This document shows positions 22,432 through 29,490 of a DNA stretch of 64,000 bases, piece after piece. The first letter of the stretch is position 1; every line of letters starts with the position of its first letter. Location: assembly GCF_055900595.2 (NCBI RefSeq), contig NZ_CM148325.1, one strand, 5' to 3'. Made by a program: the position numbers and the translations under genes. Under the pieces are notes generated by a model, which was not told the DNA's origin, did no database searches, and worked only from the letters and a program-made list of their open reading frames with translations.

Positions 22432-23163
22432 TCAGGCTGTTACCAAAGAAGCCGCAACCTGGCGCTCATCAGAAATAATGTGCGTGACCTCATCCAGATG
22501 CCCGATGCGGGCTTCCCCTGAACGATTAAATTTACTTTTATCAATCAATAACAACGATTGCGCGGCACGTTTTAATAGCATCGATTTGTAATCAGCGTTG
22601 ATGGCATTGGAGTCCCACAGTGCACCGCTGCTATCGATCCCTTCACAAGAAAAAATAAACAGATCGATTTCCAGCGATTTAAGTTGGGAAATCAGCGAGG
22701 GATTGACGTAACAGCCATATTTGCGCTCAAGTGTGCCGCCGGAACTGATCAGTTGAATGCGTTCACGTTTACCGAGTTCATGGCAAATCGGATGGCTATT
22801 GGTGAAGACCTGAATGTCGATGTCAGGCAACTGGCGTGCCAGATACCAGCAAGTTGAACTGGCGTCTAAGGCTATCACCATCCCTTCTTCAATCCACGCG
22901 AGCGCTTCGCGCGCGATATCTGCTTTATGCGCATAATGGCTTTTCAGCCGGATGTGAAAGGGATCGCCACTGTCTTGATTTTGACGGTGGATATATTTAG
23001 CGCGCCCATGATTGCGCAGAATTTTACCCTGCGTCTGTAATTCATTGAGATCGCGACGAATGGTTTCTTTACTGACCTTTAGCTGTTCAGAGAGAGCTTC
23101 CGTGGTCAGGCTGGTATGGTTCAGCAGCAGGTCGACTATCGCTTGCTGGCGTGCCGCTTTCAT
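22432..23163 (-). CDS. fucR: DeoR-family activator of the fucose regulon
   Basis: MKAARQQAIVDLLLNHTSLTTEALSEQLKVSKETIRRDL; start trimmed from ORF track (23172). Confidence 0.9.
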   Translation of the reverse strand: MKAARQQAIVDLLLNHTSLTTEALSEQLKVSKETIRRDLNELQTQGKILRNHGRAKYIHRQNQDSGDPFHIRLKSHYAHKADIAREALAWIEEGMVIALDASSTCWYLARQLPDIDIQVFTNSHPICHELGKRERIQLISSGGTLERKYGCYVNPSLISQLKSLEIDLFIFSCEGIDSSGALWDSNAINADYKSMLLKRAAQSLLLIDKSKFNRSGEARIGHLDEVTHIISDERQVAASLVTA

Positions 23164-23220
23164 ATTTTTCACCCCATCATTCGATAACCGCCCGCGTCAT
23201 GCGGGCGTACCGGTATGAGA

Positions 23221-23644: not shown

Positions 23645-25093
23645 TCACACTTCCTCTATAAATTCAGGTTCAGTTTGTGGGTAGAAATAACGGTACTGAT
23701 AATGAATCTGCGCGCGAGCTTCTTCCGGGCTGTTAAATTCCCCTACGCCATACCAACCGAACAGCGCAGCTCCTGCGACGGTCGTTTCGGCGTCGTCGAG
23801 AACTTTTACCGGAATATCAAGCATATTGGCTTTAATCTGATTCCACAATGTGTTGCGACTTCCTCCACCTACTAACAATAATTCAGAGGCTTTAAAGTGC
23901 CCGATTTTTTCCAGCATCTGTAGATTGCGCTGTAATTGCGCGGTTAACCCTTCCAGCGCCGCGCGATAGAAATGTCCGCGCGTGGTATTGAGCGTCACTC
24001 CTTGCCAGCCAGCGTTCTGACACGACAATAAATCACACTGCATTTTCACGCCATCCGCGCCAGGCGCGATCAGACGAGCCTCTTCAATCAACATTTGCCA
24101 GGGCGTTTCAGCAGTCCAGAACAGTTTTCTCACCCATTCCAGCACGCCGGATGCCAGCCATTGCATACCTGGGTTATACAACCCTGCCTGACTATCCAGT
24201 TCGCAGGTCGAACCGGCGTACTGACTTAACAGCGAAGTATCAACCTGGGCGCTACGGACCATTAAAATTTCCCATGTACCGGAAGAGAGCACGGGTTCAT
24301 TTTGTTCGGCACCAGCGCCAAAAAGGGCGAACTGGGTATCGTGACCTGCGGAAATCACCGGTATGCCAACGGGTAAGCCGAGCATTGCTGCGGCGCTGTT
24401 CTGTAACGTACCAATCTGTTCACCCGCTTCCCCCAGACGAGGGAAGAGTCGGCGCGGAATACCGGTGGCTTGTAAAATTTGCGGACTGAAATCGCGTTGC
24501 TGGATATCCAGCATCTGGCTGGTTCCGGCCATCGTGATATCAGTAGTGAATTCGCCGGTTAAACGGTGGTTAATCAGCGACGAAATAAAGAGCCAGGCGT
24601 GCGCGCGTTCCAGCAGTTGTGGATGATTTTCTTTCAACCACACCAATTTATATAACGTATTGAAACTAAAGGCTCCGACGCCAGAAATAGCCTGCAACTG
24701 CTGTGCGGAGATCAACCGTTCAATATTGTCCATTACCGCTGCTGTTCGCGGACATTTCCAGCTAATGATCGGATAGAGCAGATTGCCTTGCTTATCTACC
24801 AGAGCGCCATCCACACCAAAGGTGGTGACGGCGATACCGCGGATGTGGCATTCAGTCAGTTCACTATTGATTTGCCGACAGCAATCAGCAAAGCGTTGCA
24901 AAATGGCGTCTAAAGACCACTGGTGCCAGGTGTTGTTTTCCATCGCGATATCGCTGGCATTAGGCGTTGAGGCGCGGGCAACAATTTTTCCCTGCCGATT
25001 AACCGCGATGGCCCTGACATTGGTCGCGCCACAGTCGAGTACCAGGATAACTTCTTGTTTCATAATCGCTCCTGCAATATAGCCGGATAACAT
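23645..25093 (-). CDS. fucK: L-fuculokinase
   Basis: 482 aa FGGY kinase. Confidence 0.9.
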
Positions 25094-25171: not shown

Positions 25172-26947
25172 TTAACGCTTGTACAACGGGCCGTAGTTCT
25201 GGCAAGCGCGGTAATCCTGGCCTTCAATATCCATGCCGTGCGCGGCCCAGGCAGAAGGACGATACACTTTGGTCTCTTCAACGTTATGCATACATACCGG
25301 GATACGCAGCATGGAGGCGAGAGTGATAAAGTCAGCGCCAACGTGGCCGATGGTCAGAACCCCGTGGTTAGCGCCCCAGTTCGCCATTACCGAGTACACA
25401 TCCGTAAACGGCCCTTTACCGGTGAGGCGCGGTGCAAACCAGGTGGTTGGCCAGGTTGAGTTGGTGCGTTTGTTGAGGATGTCATGCACATCCTTCGGTA
25501 ACTCAACGCTCCAGCCTTCCGCGATTTGCAGTACCGGTCCCAGGCCTTTGATGATGTTGACACGGGTCATGGTGAACGGGACACCGCCTTCAGTAAGGAA
25601 GCGGGAAGAGTAACCACCGCCACGGAAATATTCGTGGATAGCCGGGCACCATTCGGTCGCGGCGAGGCAAGCGTCAGCCTCTTGCTGAGAGATTTCCCAG
25701 TGCGGCTTCATCGTCGGTTTACCTTCGCTGTCGCGTTGTTTACAGGATCCGTCCAGCGCAGCAGAACCGGAGTTGATCAAGTGGATGATGCCGTGTTCTG
25801 CCAGTCCGTCCAGTTTATGCCCCGTTACTCGCTCAATTGCTTCTGGTGACCAGTAGGTACGCACATCGGCAAATACCTGAGCGGTGCCGGTGAGTTGGTG
25901 ACCCATTAGCATTGCCACGCCGTTAAGACTGTCGTTTTCGGTCGCCACGACAAAGGGTTCGCGTACGCCATTCCAGTCAAATGAACTGTTGAGGATCGCT
26001 TCGGCGGTGTCGCCATTTGGATATTGATCGGTCCAGTGACGTTGCCCCTGGAAGCCCGCAGCGATGGCGTTGTAACCAAGAGATTCTTCCACGCGACCAA
26101 TATCGGCCAGTTTGCTGTTGCCTTGCATCATGTCGCGGATACACATCGTCATCAGTAAACTTTCGCGTAGAACTGCGCGGCTTTGCTCGGCATTGCGTTG
26201 ATACTGTTTGTTATTTTCATCTTCGCCATAGCGGAAGTTTTTATCAGCCCAGGCCAGCGCCATTTCCAGTTCTGCTTCGTCGTAAATCTTCTGATCAATA
26301 CGGCGACGCAGTTCGGTCATATCCACCGCCTGGACTTTCATTCCCAGCCAGGATTCAAAGAAGTTGTGGTCAACGATGGAACCGGCGATCCCCATCGAAA
26401 CGCCGCCCAGCGACAGATAGCTTTTACCTTTCATACTGGCGACTGCCAAACCGGCGCGGGCAAAGCGCAGCAGTTTTTCTTCAACGTCGGCAGGAATCGA
26501 TGTGTCATCGGCATCCTGAACGTCATGACCGTAAATGGAGAATGCCGGGATACCTTTCTGACTGTGAGCTGCCAGAGCTGCGGCGAGGTAAACAGCGCCT
26601 GGGCGTTCAGTGCCGTTAAAGCCCCAAATGGCTTTCGGGCGGGTAGGGTCCATGTCAATGGTTTCACTGCCATAGCACCAGCAAGGCGTTACCGTAATGG
26701 TGAGGCCTACATTCTGGCTGCTGAATTTTTCTTCGCAAGCAGCAGCTTCAGCCATACCCGCGATACAGGTATCGGAAATGACACACTCGACGGCAGCTCC
26801 GCAGGCATGGCGCAGTTTCTCGGTCAGCAGTGCGGCCGTAGCTTTCGCCATATTCATTGTTTGTTCTTCAAGCGACTCACGAACACCCATGCGACGACCG
26901 TCAATAACCGGGCGGATACCAATTTTCGGTAAGCTGATTTTTTTCAT
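25172..26947 (-). CDS. fucI: L-fucose isomerase
   Basis: 591 aa, [19 protein letters not shown]. Confidence 0.95.
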
Positions 26948-26979
26948 TACAGATTCCTCACTTTATTCGGAAAATATGT

Positions 26980-28296
26980 TCAGTTAGTTGCCGTTTGAGA
27001 ACGGAAACGGGCAAAGATAAAGATGACCGCGAAGCAGAGTGCGGGGATCAGTTCGGCTGTGGGGATGTTGCCCGCCGCGTCACTGACAAAACCCATGACC
27101 GGAGTGACAATACCGCCGCCAATAATGGTCATAACGATGAAGGACGAGCCGTATTTGGTGTCCTGGCCGAGATTCTTTATGCCCAGCGAGAAGATTGTTG
27201 GGTACTGAATCGACATAAAGGCGCTGCATAAAGTCAGGGCTATTAAACCCACATGACCGCCAGCGAAGGCTGAGATCAGGCACAGTGCCATAGCGATTAA
27301 TGCGTAGGCTGCCAGGACTTTGTGTGGTGCGAAGCGACTGATGAGCCAGGTGCCGGTGAAACGACCAATAAAGAAGCACACCATGGTTCCGGTTAAATAG
27401 TTAGCGGCAAAGCCTGCGGTCATACCTGGAATTTCTTCTACAGCGTAGCGAATCAAATAGCTCCAGCAGGCCGTTTGCGCGCCGACGTAGCAGAATTGCG
27501 CTAATACTGCCCAGCGCCAGTGGCGAATACGCGCCAGGCGAGAAAGCGATGCGGAGAACGATCCTTGTTTGGCGTCACTGTGATTATCACTCTGCAATGC
27601 CGGGAATTTCGTCAGCATGATCAGCAGGGCGACCAGTAACACGATAGCCACGATGATCATATAAGGTGTCTGTACCGATAATACCAGGCTGTGTTTATAC
27701 GCACTCAATTGCTCTGGTGACATTTTATCGAGAACGTCTTGCGATTGATGTGGCACGTTAGACAAAATAAGACTTTGCCCAAAGACAACCGCAATAATTG
27801 CGCCAAATGAGTTAAATGTTTGCGCAAGATTTAAGCGAAAGTGACCGCTGCTTTCTGGTCCTAATACCGTAACGAAAGGGTTTGCGGCAGTTTCCAGACA
27901 ACCTAATCCGGCTGCAATAATAAATAGGCCAATTAAAAATAAGGTGTAGTTCATTATTTCTGCGGCGGGCCAGAATAATGCAGCGCCGAAGGCATATAAA
28001 AACAATCCGGTAATAATCCCTGCTTTATAACTGAGTTTTTTCATCAATATCCCGGCAGGGATTGGGATAATGAAATAACCAAAGTAAAAGGCCGATTGGA
28101 TCAGACCTGCCTGAAAGTTTGTCAGCGTAAAAGCCTGCTGAAATTGAGGCAATAAAATGTCGTTAAGGTTATTGGCTACCGCCCAAAGAAAAAACAGTGA
28201 GCACAGCAGCGCGAATGGAATAATGTAACTTCTGCTTTGCCCTGCATCTTTATCTACCGCACGGTAACTCTGCGTTTGTATTGATGTGTTTCCCAT
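26980..28296 (-). CDS. fucP: L-fucose:H+ symporter (MFS)
   Basis: 438 aa polytopic membrane protein. Confidence 0.95.
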   Translation of the reverse strand: MGNTSIQTQSYRAVDKDAGQSRSYIIPFALLCSLFFLWAVANNLNDILLPQFQQAFTLTNFQAGLIQSAFYFGYFIIPIPAGILMKKLSYKAGIITGLFLYAFGAALFWPAAEIMNYTLFLIGLFIIAAGLGCLETAANPFVTVLGPESSGHFRLNLAQTFNSFGAIIAVVFGQSLILSNVPHQSQDVLDKMSPEQLSAYKHSLVLSVQTPYMIIVAIVLLVALLIMLTKFPALQSDNHSDAKQGSFSASLSRLARIRHWRWAVLAQFCYVGAQTACWSYLIRYAVEEIPGMTAGFAANYLTGTMVCFFIGRFTGTWLISRFAPHKVLAAYALIAMALCLISAFAGGHVGLIALTLCSAFMSIQYPTIFSLGIKNLGQDTKYGSSFIVMTIIGGGIVTPVMGFVSDAAGNIPTAELIPALCFAVIFIFARFRSQTATN

Positions 28297-28842
28297 AGCA
28301 TCCTCTTAGGTTCAGAAGCTTAAGCACGTAATCGGTTATGTTTTCAAAAGTGCAAAACCAGCGAGTTCGGGCTTCATATCAGTGAATATTTGCCTGTCTG
28401 AAATGAACTCATGGATTCATTTTCAAATAAAAAACGCTCTGTAATATGACGACGGTCACACTTATTAGCTGGGAGGTGACTTTATGTGACTACCATCACT
28501 TTAATAATCGAAATTTCATGCCCGTTTCAGAAAATAAATCATAAAAAACACAAACCAGATGACCGTATTAATTGTTTATGCCGAAAACGGGCATTTCTGG
28601 CGAGGGGAAATGGAAAAATGACCGTTTTGATAAATATTTTTAAGAGCGGTCATTTTTAACGGGGTTATAAAAAGAGAACTTGCAGTTATTTACTGTGATT
28701 AGTTGAGCCAGGTCACAAAATATAAGCTTGTGAATTTCTTTCCGGTTAATCAGGAAGAAGATGGTGGGTAATTAAACGGCTAATTCAATAGTGTGAAAGG
28801 AACAACATTATTGCCCTGTTTTGAATCAGAGAGAGGTAGCTA
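28297..28842. promoter_or_regulatory. Divergent fucPIKUR / fucAO control region
   Basis: 546 bp AT-rich intergenic region between divergent operons; contains several copies of a TGACCG(T) core in both orientations (for example atgaccgta, gacggtca, atgaccgtt, gcggtcat). Confidence 0.5.
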
Positions 28843-29490
28843 ATGGAACGAAATAAACTTGCTCGTCAGATTATTGACACTTGCCTGGAAATGACCCGCC
28901 TGGGACTGAATCAGGGAACAGCGGGTAACGTCAGTGTACGTTATCAGGATGGGATGCTGATTACGCCTACAGGCATTCCGTATGAAAAACTGACGGAGTC
29001 GCATATTGTCTTTATTGATGGCAACGGTAAACATGAGGAAGGAAAGCTTCCCTCAAGCGAATGGCGTTTCCATATGGCGGCCTATCAAAGCAGACCGGAT
29101 GCCAACGCGGTTGTTCACAATCATGCCGTTCATTGCACGGCAGTTTCCATTCTTAACCGACCTATCCCCGCTATTCACTACATGATTGCGGCGGCTGGCG
29201 GTAATTCTATTCCTTGCGCGCCTTATGCGACCTTTGGAACTCGGGAACTTTCTGAACATGTTGCGCTGGCTCTCAAAAACCGTAAGGCAACTTTGTTACA
29301 ACATCATGGGCTTATCGCTTGTGAGGTGAATCTGGAGAAAGCGTTATGGCTGGCGCATGAAGTTGAAGTGCTGGCGCAGCTTTACCTGACGACCCTGGCG
29401 ATTACGGACCCGGTGCCAGTGCTGAGCGATGAAGAGATTGCCGTAGTGCTGGAGAAATTCAAAACCTACGGGTTACGGATTGAAGAGTAA
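28843..29490 (+). CDS. fucA: L-fuculose-phosphate aldolase
   Basis: 215 aa class II aldolase. Confidence 0.95.
   Translation: MERNKLARQIIDTCLEMTRLGLNQGTAGNVSVRYQDGMLITPTGIPYEKLTESHIVFIDGNGKHEEGKLPSSEWRFHMAAYQSRPDANAVVHNHAVHCTAVSILNRPIPAIHYMIAAAGGNSIPCAPYATFGTRELSEHVALALKNRKATLLQHHGLIACEVNLEKALWLAHEVEVLAQLYLTTLAITDPVPVLSDEEIAVVLEKFKTYGLRIEE

What the first reader, a model, noticed from the sequence alone, without database searches (positions are those of the whole stretch)
28297..28842. Repeated TGACCG(T) motifs in the divergent fuc control region
At least four copies of a TGACCG core occur in both orientations within about 200 bp (gacggtcacact, atgaccgtattaattg, atgaccgttttgataa, gcggtcattttt). 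They are plausible half-sites for the DeoR-type activator FucR. I do not recall the mapped FucR operator well enough to confirm this.
Basis: inference. Interest (0 to 1): 0.2.

Follow-up and report, generated by a model that had tools for sequence, protein, structure and literature searches.

The report
Known FucR operator sites, fuc region
The repeated TGACCG motif is the already published binding core of FucR, the fucose activator, in the E. coli fucP/fucA control region.

Summary
Four exact TGACCG copies lie at 28453, 28560, 28619 and 28647, against 0.13 expected locally (P about 1e-5).

CGG(T/G)CA, the reverse complement of the motif, is the FucR motif from DAP-seq (Baumgart 2021, as cited in PMC11011485). 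Copy 4 is operator OFucR3; mutating it lowers fucose induction of fucAO more than 50-fold.

Refinements from 46 Enterobacterales fucP/fucA regions:
- The core is TGnCCG with A3/T3 flanks.
- Order and orientation (> > < > <) are conserved.
- Two inverted pairs, TGnCCG-N22-CGGnCA, keep a fixed 28-bp offset. The linker between them varies.
- Copy 1 (28453) lies in CRP site OCrp0. Its CGG is not conserved and it scores like background.

A matrix trained only on other genera ranks the five sites as the top five positions in the whole 64-kb window.

Most likely mechanism: FucR bound to fuculose-1-P occupies this central array and, together with cAMP-CRP, activates both divergent promoters.

Verdict: already known, low interest. 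The conserved pair geometry is a modest addition.

The parts
28519..28524 (+). S0: FucR-type site TGCCCG (extended tcaTGCCCGttt). Solitary site 41 bp from S1.
   Evidence: Scores 14.6 bits, 5th best of all positions in the 64-kb window. Present at the same relative position in most of the 46 related fucP/fucA regions, with an S0-S1 offset of 41-42 bp. Column conservation 0.97.
28560..28565 (+). Left half of inverted pair A.
   Evidence: 16.3 bits, rank 3. The S1-S2 offset is 28 bp in nearly all taxa from Escherichia to Photorhabdus. Dispensable for PfucAO, because the -270 truncation that lacks it keeps full activity.
28588..28593 (-). S2: CGGGCA on the + strand, equal to published operator OFucR2 (K-12: ccgaaaaCGGtCAtt). 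This strain carries T->G at the degenerate base.
   Evidence: Alignment to K-12. 19.2 bits, rank 2. OFucR2 mutation lowers fucose-induced PfucAO activity by about 30% (PMC11011485).
28619..28624 (+). Left half of inverted pair B.
   Evidence: 20.6 bits, best match in the whole window. Conserved 28-29 bp from S4. Not named in the text of the papers I could read. The -206 truncation removes S2 and S3 and loses only about 30%, so S3 is not essential for PfucAO in that reporter.
28647..28652 (-).
   Evidence: Sequence identical to OFucR3. Its mutation lowers fucose induction of PfucAO more than 50-fold (PMC11011485). 14.7 bits, rank 4.
28560..28593 (.). Inverted pair A: TGACCG-N22-CGGGCA.
   Evidence: The pattern TGNCCG-N22-CGGNCA occurs exactly twice in 64 kb, both in this region, against 0.08 expected. 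Pair A is present in 43 of 47 regions at exactly N22 and in 45 of 47 when N21-N23 is allowed.
28619..28652 (.). Inverted pair B: TGACCG-N22-CGGTCA.
   Evidence: A lone pair of the same geometry precedes fucAO in Serratia sp. DD3, which has no divergent fucP (L060 2311-2344).
28445..28460 (.). CRP site OCrp0 (TATGAcgaCGGTCACA).
   Evidence: One mismatch to TGTGA-N6-TCACA. The half-sites are invariant while the spacer, including the CGG, varies (CGG/TGG/CAG/GAA) across species. As a FucR site it scores 7.5 bits, rank 43, like coding-region background. It lies on the fucP side of the IS5 site, whereas all four known FucR sites lie on the fucA side.
28485..28500 (.). CRP site OCrp1 (TGTGActaccaTCACt).
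   Evidence: One mismatch to the consensus. Half-sites 100% conserved. Named in PMC11011485 and PMC11894529.
28702..28717 (.). CRP site OCrp2, centred at -70.5 from the PfucAO start and 60 bp from the centre of S4.
   Evidence: Two mismatches. Functionally validated in PMC11011485.
28792..28807 (.). CRP site OCrp3, in the fucA 5' untranslated region.
   Evidence: Two mismatches. Its mutation gives about a 30% reduction (PMC11011485).
28780..28780 (+). PfucAO transcription start (C, 63 nt upstream of the fucA ATG).
   Evidence: 5'RACE in PMC11011485, mapped onto the window, which has no indel relative to K-12 here.
22432..23172 (-). fucR, the L-fucose operon activator (DeoR family).
   Evidence: NCBIfam NF007720, 507 bits against a cut-off of 259. 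Pfam HTH_DeoR plus DeoRC.
26980..28296 (-). fucP, first gene of the fucPIKUR operon.
   Evidence: NCBIfam NF007524, 976 bits. RefSeq annotation.
28843..29490 (+). fucA, first gene of the fucAO operon.
   Evidence: NCBIfam TIGR01086 and NF005984. RefSeq annotation.

Best explanation
The TGACCG repeats are the core of the operator for FucR, the DeoR-family activator of the fucose regulon. The true recognition element is AAA-CGGnCA-TTT (equivalently TGnCCG; n is T, G or rarely A). The fucP/fucA intergenic region carries five such sites in a central 134-bp array (28519-28652). Their order and orientation are fixed (> > < > <). They form two inverted pairs, TGnCCG-N22-CGGnCA (S1/S2 and S3/S4), plus a solitary site S0. 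This array sits between the CRP sites of the two divergent promoters: OCrp0 and OCrp1 toward fucPIKUR, OCrp2 and OCrp3 toward fucAO. When fucose is metabolised to fuculose-1-phosphate, FucR binds the array and, with cAMP-CRP, switches on both operons. For fucAO, S4 (OFucR3) is the essential site and S2 (OFucR2) adds about 30%; this is shown in the literature for K-12. Three points are inferred: that S0-S2 serve fucPIKUR, that each 28-bp pair is bound as a unit by a FucR oligomer, and that the variable S2-S3 linker separates two independent operators. It is the right half of CRP site OCrp0.
For: The published FucR consensus and the operator sequences OFucR2 and OFucR3 match S2 and S4, and their mutational effects are reported (PMC11011485). 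Hexamer enrichment in 16 non-Escherichia genera puts CGGTCA (23-fold) and CGGGCA (22-fold) first and second. A matrix trained only on those genera ranks S3, S2, S1, S4 and S0 as the five best of about 128,000 positions in the window. fucP/fucA regions hold 4.9 sites each, against 0.39 upstream of fucA paralogues without fucP and 0.19 per 550 bp of coding DNA. Spacings are conserved at 41-42, 28 and 28-29 bp, while the S2-S3 linker ranges from 20 to 53 bp. The paired pattern occurs twice in 64 kb, both here, against 0.08 expected. The conservation profile peaks on the hexamers and the CRP half-sites, with the n position and the linker free. Of the 17 differences between this strain and K-12, none touches an invariant site base, 1 is at the n of S2, and 8 fall in the S2-S3 linker. 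A lone pair plus a CRP-like site precedes fucAO in Serratia sp. DD3.
Against: No binding assay can be run here, and the primary DAP-seq paper was not held, so its motif is known only as quoted by PMC11011485. The -206 truncation keeps S4 alone yet retains about 70% of induced activity, so pairing is not required for most of the fucAO activation in that reporter. A biosensor study fitted a Hill coefficient of 1 for the fucose response (PMC10046853), which gives no sign of cooperativity. S0, S1 and S3 have no direct experimental support in the text I could read. 'OR0/OR1' are called putative and their sequences are not given. A 28-bp centre-to-centre distance (about 2.7 helical turns) is unusual for a simple dimer.
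Confidence: 0.87

Rival explanations
1. Each hexamer-containing site is an independent FucR site. The 28-bp inverted-pair geometry has no mechanistic role and is conserved only by descent or by constraints from neighbouring elements.
For: The -206 construct with S4 alone keeps about 70% of induced PfucAO activity, the same loss as mutating OFucR2 alone. Hill coefficient of 1 in PMC10046853. The published motif is a single 15-mer, not a bipartite one.
Against: The 28-bp offset holds from Escherichia to Yersinia and Photorhabdus while the adjacent S2-S3 linker drifts from 20 to 53 bp and the spacer sequences diverge. An isolated pair with the same offset occurs in a different genomic context in Serratia sp. 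DD3. Photorhabdus has a further pair at the same offset starting at S0.
Confidence: 0.3
2. All four of the reader's copies, including copy 1 at 28453, are FucR sites. Copy 1 would then be a dual CRP/FucR site at the fucPIKUR promoter.
For: The exact CGGTCA is also present in K-12. CGG or TGG precedes TCACA in many Enterobacteriaceae. The matrix gives 9-14 bits at this position in some genera.
Against: In the window it scores 7.5 bits, rank 43, no better than hits in coding DNA, because the A3/T3 flanks are missing. The CGG is replaced by TGG, CAG or GAA in E. coli SCPM-O-B-8794, E. albertii, Hafnia, Yersinia and Photorhabdus, while TATGA and TCACA stay invariant. The literature assigns this sequence to OCrp0 and places all four known FucR sites beyond the IS5 site.
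Confidence: 0.1
3. The repeats are a chance feature of the sequence or a remnant of a local tandem duplication with no function.
For: TGACCG is generally over-represented in this window (57 against 29.8 expected). The two pairs lie 59 bp apart, as a duplication would leave them.
Against: P is about 1e-5 locally and 1.6e-3 against the empirical rate. Only the core bases, not the spacers, are shared between the two pairs and across genera. Functional mutagenesis of S2 and S4 is published.
Confidence: 0.01
4. The motif is bound by a regulator other than FucR, and the fucose phenotypes of the operator mutants are indirect.
For: I could not read the primary in vitro binding data. The operator mutants were assayed only by reporter activity.
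Against: The motif was derived from in vitro binding of FucR protein to genomic DNA, as described in PMC11011485. The mutant effects appear only under fucose induction. The motif co-occurs with the fucP/fucA arrangement and is nearly absent upstream of fucA paralogues elsewhere.
Confidence: 0.02

Closest known systems
FucR operators OFucR2/OFucR3 (also written OR2/OR3, with putative OR0/OR1) of the E. coli K-12 fucPIK/fucAO intergenic region (Zhang et al. 2024, PMC11011485; 2025, PMC11894529; motif from Baumgart et al. 2021 DAP-seq)
   Same: Same locus, 98% identical over 546 bp with no indel. S4 is identical to OFucR3. S2 equals OFucR2 apart from one base at the degenerate position. The CRP sites and the PfucAO start are the same.
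   Different: This strain has CGGGCA where K-12 has CGGTCA in OFucR2. In the text I could read, the papers give sequences for two single 15-mers only. The comparison here shows five sites with conserved orientation and two 28-bp inverted pairs, and S3 (the best-scoring site) is not mentioned in that text. The K-12 IS5 target CTAG (28469-28472) reads CTGG here.
Operators of other DeoR-family regulators, such as GlpR tandem operators in the glp regulon and the DeoR 16-bp palindromes (recalled from general knowledge, not tested here)
   Same: Multiple operator copies per control region. Sugar-phosphate effector. Interplay with cAMP-CRP. Divergent operon pairs such as glpTQ/glpACB.
   Different: Those regulators are repressors that bind compact palindromes of about 16-20 bp. 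FucR is an activator, its core is an asymmetric hexamer, and its inverted partners lie 28 bp apart. FucR is only distantly related to them: 99-137 bits to the GlpR and AgaR models, below their cut-offs.
Divergent CRP-plus-specific-activator control regions such as malEp/malKp (MalT + CRP) (recalled from general knowledge)
   Same: A central array of activator sites flanked by CRP sites feeding two divergent, activator-dependent promoters. Consistent with this, no consensus-like sigma-70 promoter is detected in the region.
   Different: Unrelated activator family and motif. A higher-order FucR/CRP complex has not been demonstrated.

Membership tests
FucR operator (E. coli fuc regulon) | Match to the published FucR consensus RYSMRHW-CGG-K-CA-W-B | tested here: met
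   S4 is identical to OFucR3. S2 matches OFucR2 with the allowed G at position K. S0, S1 and S3 score 14.6-20.6 bits with a matrix built from other genera and are the top hits in 64 kb. Copy 1 fails on the flanks (7.5 bits).
FucR operator (E. coli fuc regulon) | Located in the control region of FucR-regulated operons, with fucR encoded in the cluster | tested here: met
   fucP, fucA, fucO and fucR are identified above the NCBIfam cut-offs. FucR carries DeoR-family domains. RefSeq annotation agrees.
FucR operator (E. coli fuc regulon) | Conserved in orthologous control regions and absent from unrelated ones | tested here: met
   4.9 sites per fucP/fucA region in 47 sequences, against 0.39 upstream of fucA paralogues and 0.19 per 550 bp of coding DNA. 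The conservation profile agrees.
FucR operator (E. coli fuc regulon) | Direct binding by FucR protein | not testable with these tools
   Known only second-hand: DAP-seq identified OFucR2, as reported in PMC11011485. The primary paper is not held.
FucR operator (E. coli fuc regulon) | Required for fucose (fuculose-1-P) induction | not testable with these tools
   Literature for K-12: OFucR3 mutation more than 50-fold down, OFucR2 mutation about 30% down. S0 and S1 are dispensable for PfucAO, and S3 adds nothing detectable. No data for the fucPIKUR promoter.
   TATGAcgacggTCACA has 1 mismatch. Half-site conservation is 0.99-1.00 against 0.76 for the spacer. The spacer's CGG varies across taxa. 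Named OCrp0 in the literature.
Compact palindromic DeoR/GlpR-type operator | Two half-sites within one contiguous palindrome of about 16-20 bp | tested here: not met
   The core hexamer is asymmetric. Within the 12-mer AAACGGnCATTT only 4 of 6 mirrored positions can pair, and C is avoided at n (2%). Inverted partners lie 28 bp apart.

The most novel reading that the evidence does not exclude
The functional FucR operator may not be the single 15-mer described so far. It may be a long-range inverted pair, TGnCCG-N22-CGGnCA, with a 28-bp offset conserved from Escherichia to Photorhabdus. Two or three such pairs would form a 134-bp array bound by a FucR oligomer that wraps or bends the AT-rich spacers. 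The untested S0-S1-S2 group would then be the main switch for fucPIKUR and hence for fucR autoregulation. A conserved AAAnCCACA block in exact register with a would-be partner of S0 (28546-28556) would be a diverged sixth site.
Probability: 0.4. Interest if true: 0.3.

Novelty: already known. Interest (0 to 1): 0.15.

Why it matters
The finding confirms that a reader working from sequence alone recovered the true FucR recognition core, but this adds nothing that was not published between 2021 and 2025. The comparative analysis contributes three modest things:
- A cleaner definition of the site: TGnCCG with a free third base.
- A complete five-site map, which includes the best-scoring site S3 and the fucP-proximal sites S0 and S1. 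No experiment in the text I could read addresses these three.
- A conserved 28-bp pair geometry that could guide footprinting and the design of fucose biosensors or synthetic fuc promoters.

It also shows that the OFucR2 T->G difference in this strain falls at a tolerated position.

Tried and rejected
- **Primary DAP-seq paper** (Baumgart 2021): not held. A preprint search found nothing. The motif is therefore taken as quoted in PMC11011485.
- **Zhang 2010 J Bacteriol** (PMC2838058): not held. I could not obtain the mapped fucP start. A start near 28411, with OCrp0 at -41.5, is my inference only.
- **Other sources for the FucR motif**: RegPrecise and general literature searches gave no further description for enterobacteria.
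- **Solved structures**: no relative of FucR found by sequence at E <= 1e-3, so the 28-bp spacing has no structural explanation.
- **Promoter and terminator scan** of the intergenic region: nothing found.
- **Matrix hit at 23898-23903 inside fucK** (14.4 bits): it has no partner 28 bp away and is treated as chance.
- **The AAAnCCACA block as a third CRP site**: rejected, because there is no TGTGA-like left half 6 bp upstream.
- **Tandem duplication as the origin of the two pairs**: rejected as a sufficient explanation, because only the cores are shared.

Full report
**What is there**

Window 28297-28842 is the 546-bp region between the divergent genes fucP (26980-28296, minus strand) and fucA (28843-29490, plus strand) of an Escherichia coli chromosome.
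- RefSeq annotation of identical genomes names both genes.
- NCBIfam places FucP, FucA, FucO and FucR above their curated cut-offs.
- FucR (22432-23172, minus strand) has the HTH_DeoR and DeoRC domains.
- The region aligns to K-12 MG1655 without indels and with 17 substitutions.
- Only 12 of 5,040 matching E. coli genomes are at least 99% identical over 751 bp, so the window comes from a lineage other than K-12.

**Check of the observation**

The four quoted strings are present. Exact TGACCG occurs at 28453 (-), 28560 (+), 28619 (+) and 28647 (-).
- A first-order Markov model of this 37% G+C region expects 0.13 copies, and none of 20,000 simulations reached four.
- Poisson P is 9e-6 locally and 1.6e-3 against the empirical window-wide rate.
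- The empirical rate is the fairer background, because the hexamer is about two-fold enriched in the whole window (57 against 29.8).

**What the literature already says**

Zhang et al. 2024 (PMC11011485) quote the FucR motif that Baumgart et al. 2021 derived from in vitro protein-DNA binding.

They define two operators:
- OFucR2 is ccgaaaaCGGtCAtt. Mutating it lowers fucose-induced PfucAO activity by about 30%.
- OFucR3 is ttaagagCGGtCAtt. Mutating it lowers induced activity more than 50-fold.

Their 5' truncations gave these results:

| Truncation end | Sites left relative to the window | Induced activity |
|---|---|---|
| -270 | lacks S0 and S1 | full |
| -206 | lacks S2 and S3, keeps S4 | about 70% |
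| -166 | lacks S4 as well | nearly none |

They also map the PfucAO start by 5'RACE to the C 63 nt upstream of the fucA ATG, which is window 28780. They name four CRP sites, OCrp0 to OCrp3.

Zhang et al. 2025 (PMC11894529) add 'putative' operators OR0 and OR1 for the fucPIKUR promoter. They state that all four known FucR sites lie on the fucA side of the IS5 insertion point. That point is CTAG at -374 to -371, or window 28469-28472.

**Mapping onto the window**

- OFucR2 lies at 28581-28595.
- Copies 2 (28560) and 3 (28619) are inverted relative to OFucR2 and OFucR3. Each lies exactly 28 bp to their left.
- Copy 1 (28453) lies inside TATGAcgacggTCACA (28445-28460). This is a one-mismatch CRP site corresponding to OCrp0, on the fucP side of the IS5 point.

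**Comparative test**

A scan of one genome per species with FucA returned 80 loci, and 46 of them have a divergent fucP.

- *Unbiased enrichment.* In 16 non-Escherichia genera, CGGTCA (49 copies, 23-fold) and CGGGCA (28 copies, 22-fold) are the two most enriched hexamers.
- *The motif.* Stacking the sites gives AAA-CGG-n-CA-TTT, with n = T 55%, G 35%, A 8%, C 2%. This agrees with the published consensus.
- *Scan of the window.* A matrix built only from those other genera was run over both strands of the 64-kb window. Its five best positions are S3 28619 (20.6 bits), S2 28588 (19.2), S1 28560 (16.3), S4 28647 (14.7) and S0 28519 (14.6). Copy 1 ranks 43rd at 7.5 bits, level with hits in coding DNA.
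- *Specificity.* fucP/fucA regions carry 4.9 sites on average. The 600 bp upstream of fucA paralogues without fucP carry 0.39, and coding DNA carries 0.19 per 550 bp.

**Architecture**

The order and orientation > > < > < (S0 S1 S2 S3 S4) recur across Enterobacteriaceae, Hafnia and Yersinia.

| Interval | Offset |
|---|---|
| S0 to S1 | 41-42 bp |
| S1 to S2 | 28 bp (rarely 29) |
| S2 to S3 | 20 to 53 bp |
| S3 to S4 | 28-29 bp |

- TGNCCG-N22-CGGNCA occurs exactly twice in the window, both here, against 0.08 expected.
- A conservation profile of 26 sequences peaks on the hexamers (0.89-0.97, with the n column free) and on the CRP half-sites (0.99-1.00). The S2-S3 linker is the least conserved stretch at 0.49.
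- The same holds within E. coli. Eight of the 17 differences from K-12 fall in that 25-bp linker, one falls at the n of S2, and none touches an invariant site base.
- In Serratia sp. DD3, fucAO follows a gene on the same strand instead of a divergent fucP. There a single pair, TGCCCG-N22-CGGGCA, sits 59 bp from a CRP-like TGAgctttgTCACA. In the window, S4 and OCrp2 are 60 bp apart.
- In most Photorhabdus species sampled, S0 has a true CGGTCA partner at +28.

**Copy 1**

Across species the CRP half-sites TATGA and TCACA are invariant. The three bases that make up copy 1's CGG read CGG, TGG, CAG, TTG, GAA or CAA. This includes TGG in another E. coli and in E. albertii. Copy 1 is best explained as the CRP site OCrp0, and a dual role is unlikely (about 0.1).

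**Mechanism**

*Shown, in K-12 literature:* FucR and CRP are both required for fucose induction of PfucAO. S4/OFucR3 is essential and S2/OFucR2 is auxiliary. OCrp2, centred at -70.5, is the main CRP site.

*Shown here:* five conserved FucR-type sites form a central array between the CRP sites of two promoters. Neither promoter resembles a consensus sigma-70 promoter.

*Inferred:*
- FucR charged with fuculose-1-phosphate occupies the array and works with CRP at both promoters.
- S0-S2 serve fucPIKUR, which would also give fucR positive feedback.
- Each 28-bp pair is contacted as a unit by a FucR oligomer.
- The variable linker separates two operators that need no fixed helical phase.

*Against an obligatory role for pairing:* S4 alone supports about 70% of activity in the -206 construct. 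A biosensor study also fitted a Hill coefficient of 1 (PMC10046853).

**Comparison and verdict**

The closest known system is the same locus in K-12, so the finding is already known. The resemblance to GlpR/DeoR operators is one of family and logic, not of site design. The compact-palindrome criterion is not met.

The additions from this work are the degenerate third base, the five-site map, the reassignment of copy 1 to CRP, and the conserved pair geometry. These are incremental, and interest is low.

Noticed in passing
window 28469-28472: The CTAG tetranucleotide into which IS5 always inserts in K-12 propanediol-positive mutants (-374 to -371 from fucA; PMC11894529) reads CTGG in this strain. 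An adjacent TTAG (28465-28468) remains. This lineage might therefore activate fucAO by IS5 less readily, or at a shifted position.
   Followed up: no
window 28546-28556, and the same position in L006-L080: A conserved block tAAAAnCCACAg lies between S0 and S1. Its AAA and CA are in exact register (+25 to +33) with where an inverted partner of S0 would sit, but it has CC where FucR sites have GG. In most Photorhabdus species sampled a true CGGTCA occupies this position. It could be a diverged sixth site or the site of another factor. It does not look like a full CRP site.
   Followed up: partly
window 28594-28618: The S2-S3 linker is a hotspot of change. It holds 8 of the 17 substitutions relative to K-12, has the lowest cross-genus conservation (0.49), and its length ranges from 20 to 53 bp between genera.
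   Followed up: yes
window 28728-28775: PMC11011485 gives the PfucAO -35 element as TTGtgA at -96 to -91 and the -10 as aATtAa at -73 to -68. In the sequence, aattaa is indeed at -73 to -68 (28770-28775), but TTGTGA lies at -115 to -110 (28728-28733), 36 bp upstream. The bases at -96 to -91 read TAATCA. K-12's TTGTTA at -100 to -95 reads CGGTTA in this strain. The -35 assignment looks inconsistent.
   Followed up: partly
window 28403-28434: A strongly conserved block, gaatgaactcatgGattcattttcaaataaaaaa, lies just fucP-side of OCrp0. It contains the repeat ATGAAnTCAT (an ATGAATTCAT palindrome in most genera). It probably covers the fucPIKUR -10 region, start site and early 5' untranslated region. 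The literature mentions a predicted SrsR site in that untranslated region.
   Followed up: no
window 23898-23903: A lone FucR-matrix match (14.4 bits, TGCCCG with an A-rich flank) lies inside the 3' part of fucK, about 250 bp upstream of fucU and fucR. It has no partner 28 bp away. It is probably chance, but an internal FucR-dependent promoter for fucUR was not excluded.
   Followed up: partly
whole window, e.g. 26314-27842: TGACCG is about twice as frequent in the whole window as dinucleotide shuffles predict (57 against 29.8). Eight copies lie in the fucI and fucP coding sequences. This is probably a codon-usage effect (for example CTG-ACC-G). None of these copies appears among the 25 best matrix scores.
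   Followed up: no
L060 2300-2410 (Serratia sp. DD3): This is a natural minimal fucAO control region. It has one TGCCCG-N22-CGGGCA pair and a CRP-like TGAgctttgTCACA 59 bp downstream, with a gene on the same strand upstream instead of a divergent fucP.
   Followed up: partly
window 28297-28842: No sigma-70 consensus-like promoter and no intrinsic terminator-like site were found in the 546-bp region (0 promoters against 1.7 expected in shuffles). This fits two strictly activator-dependent promoters.
   Followed up: no
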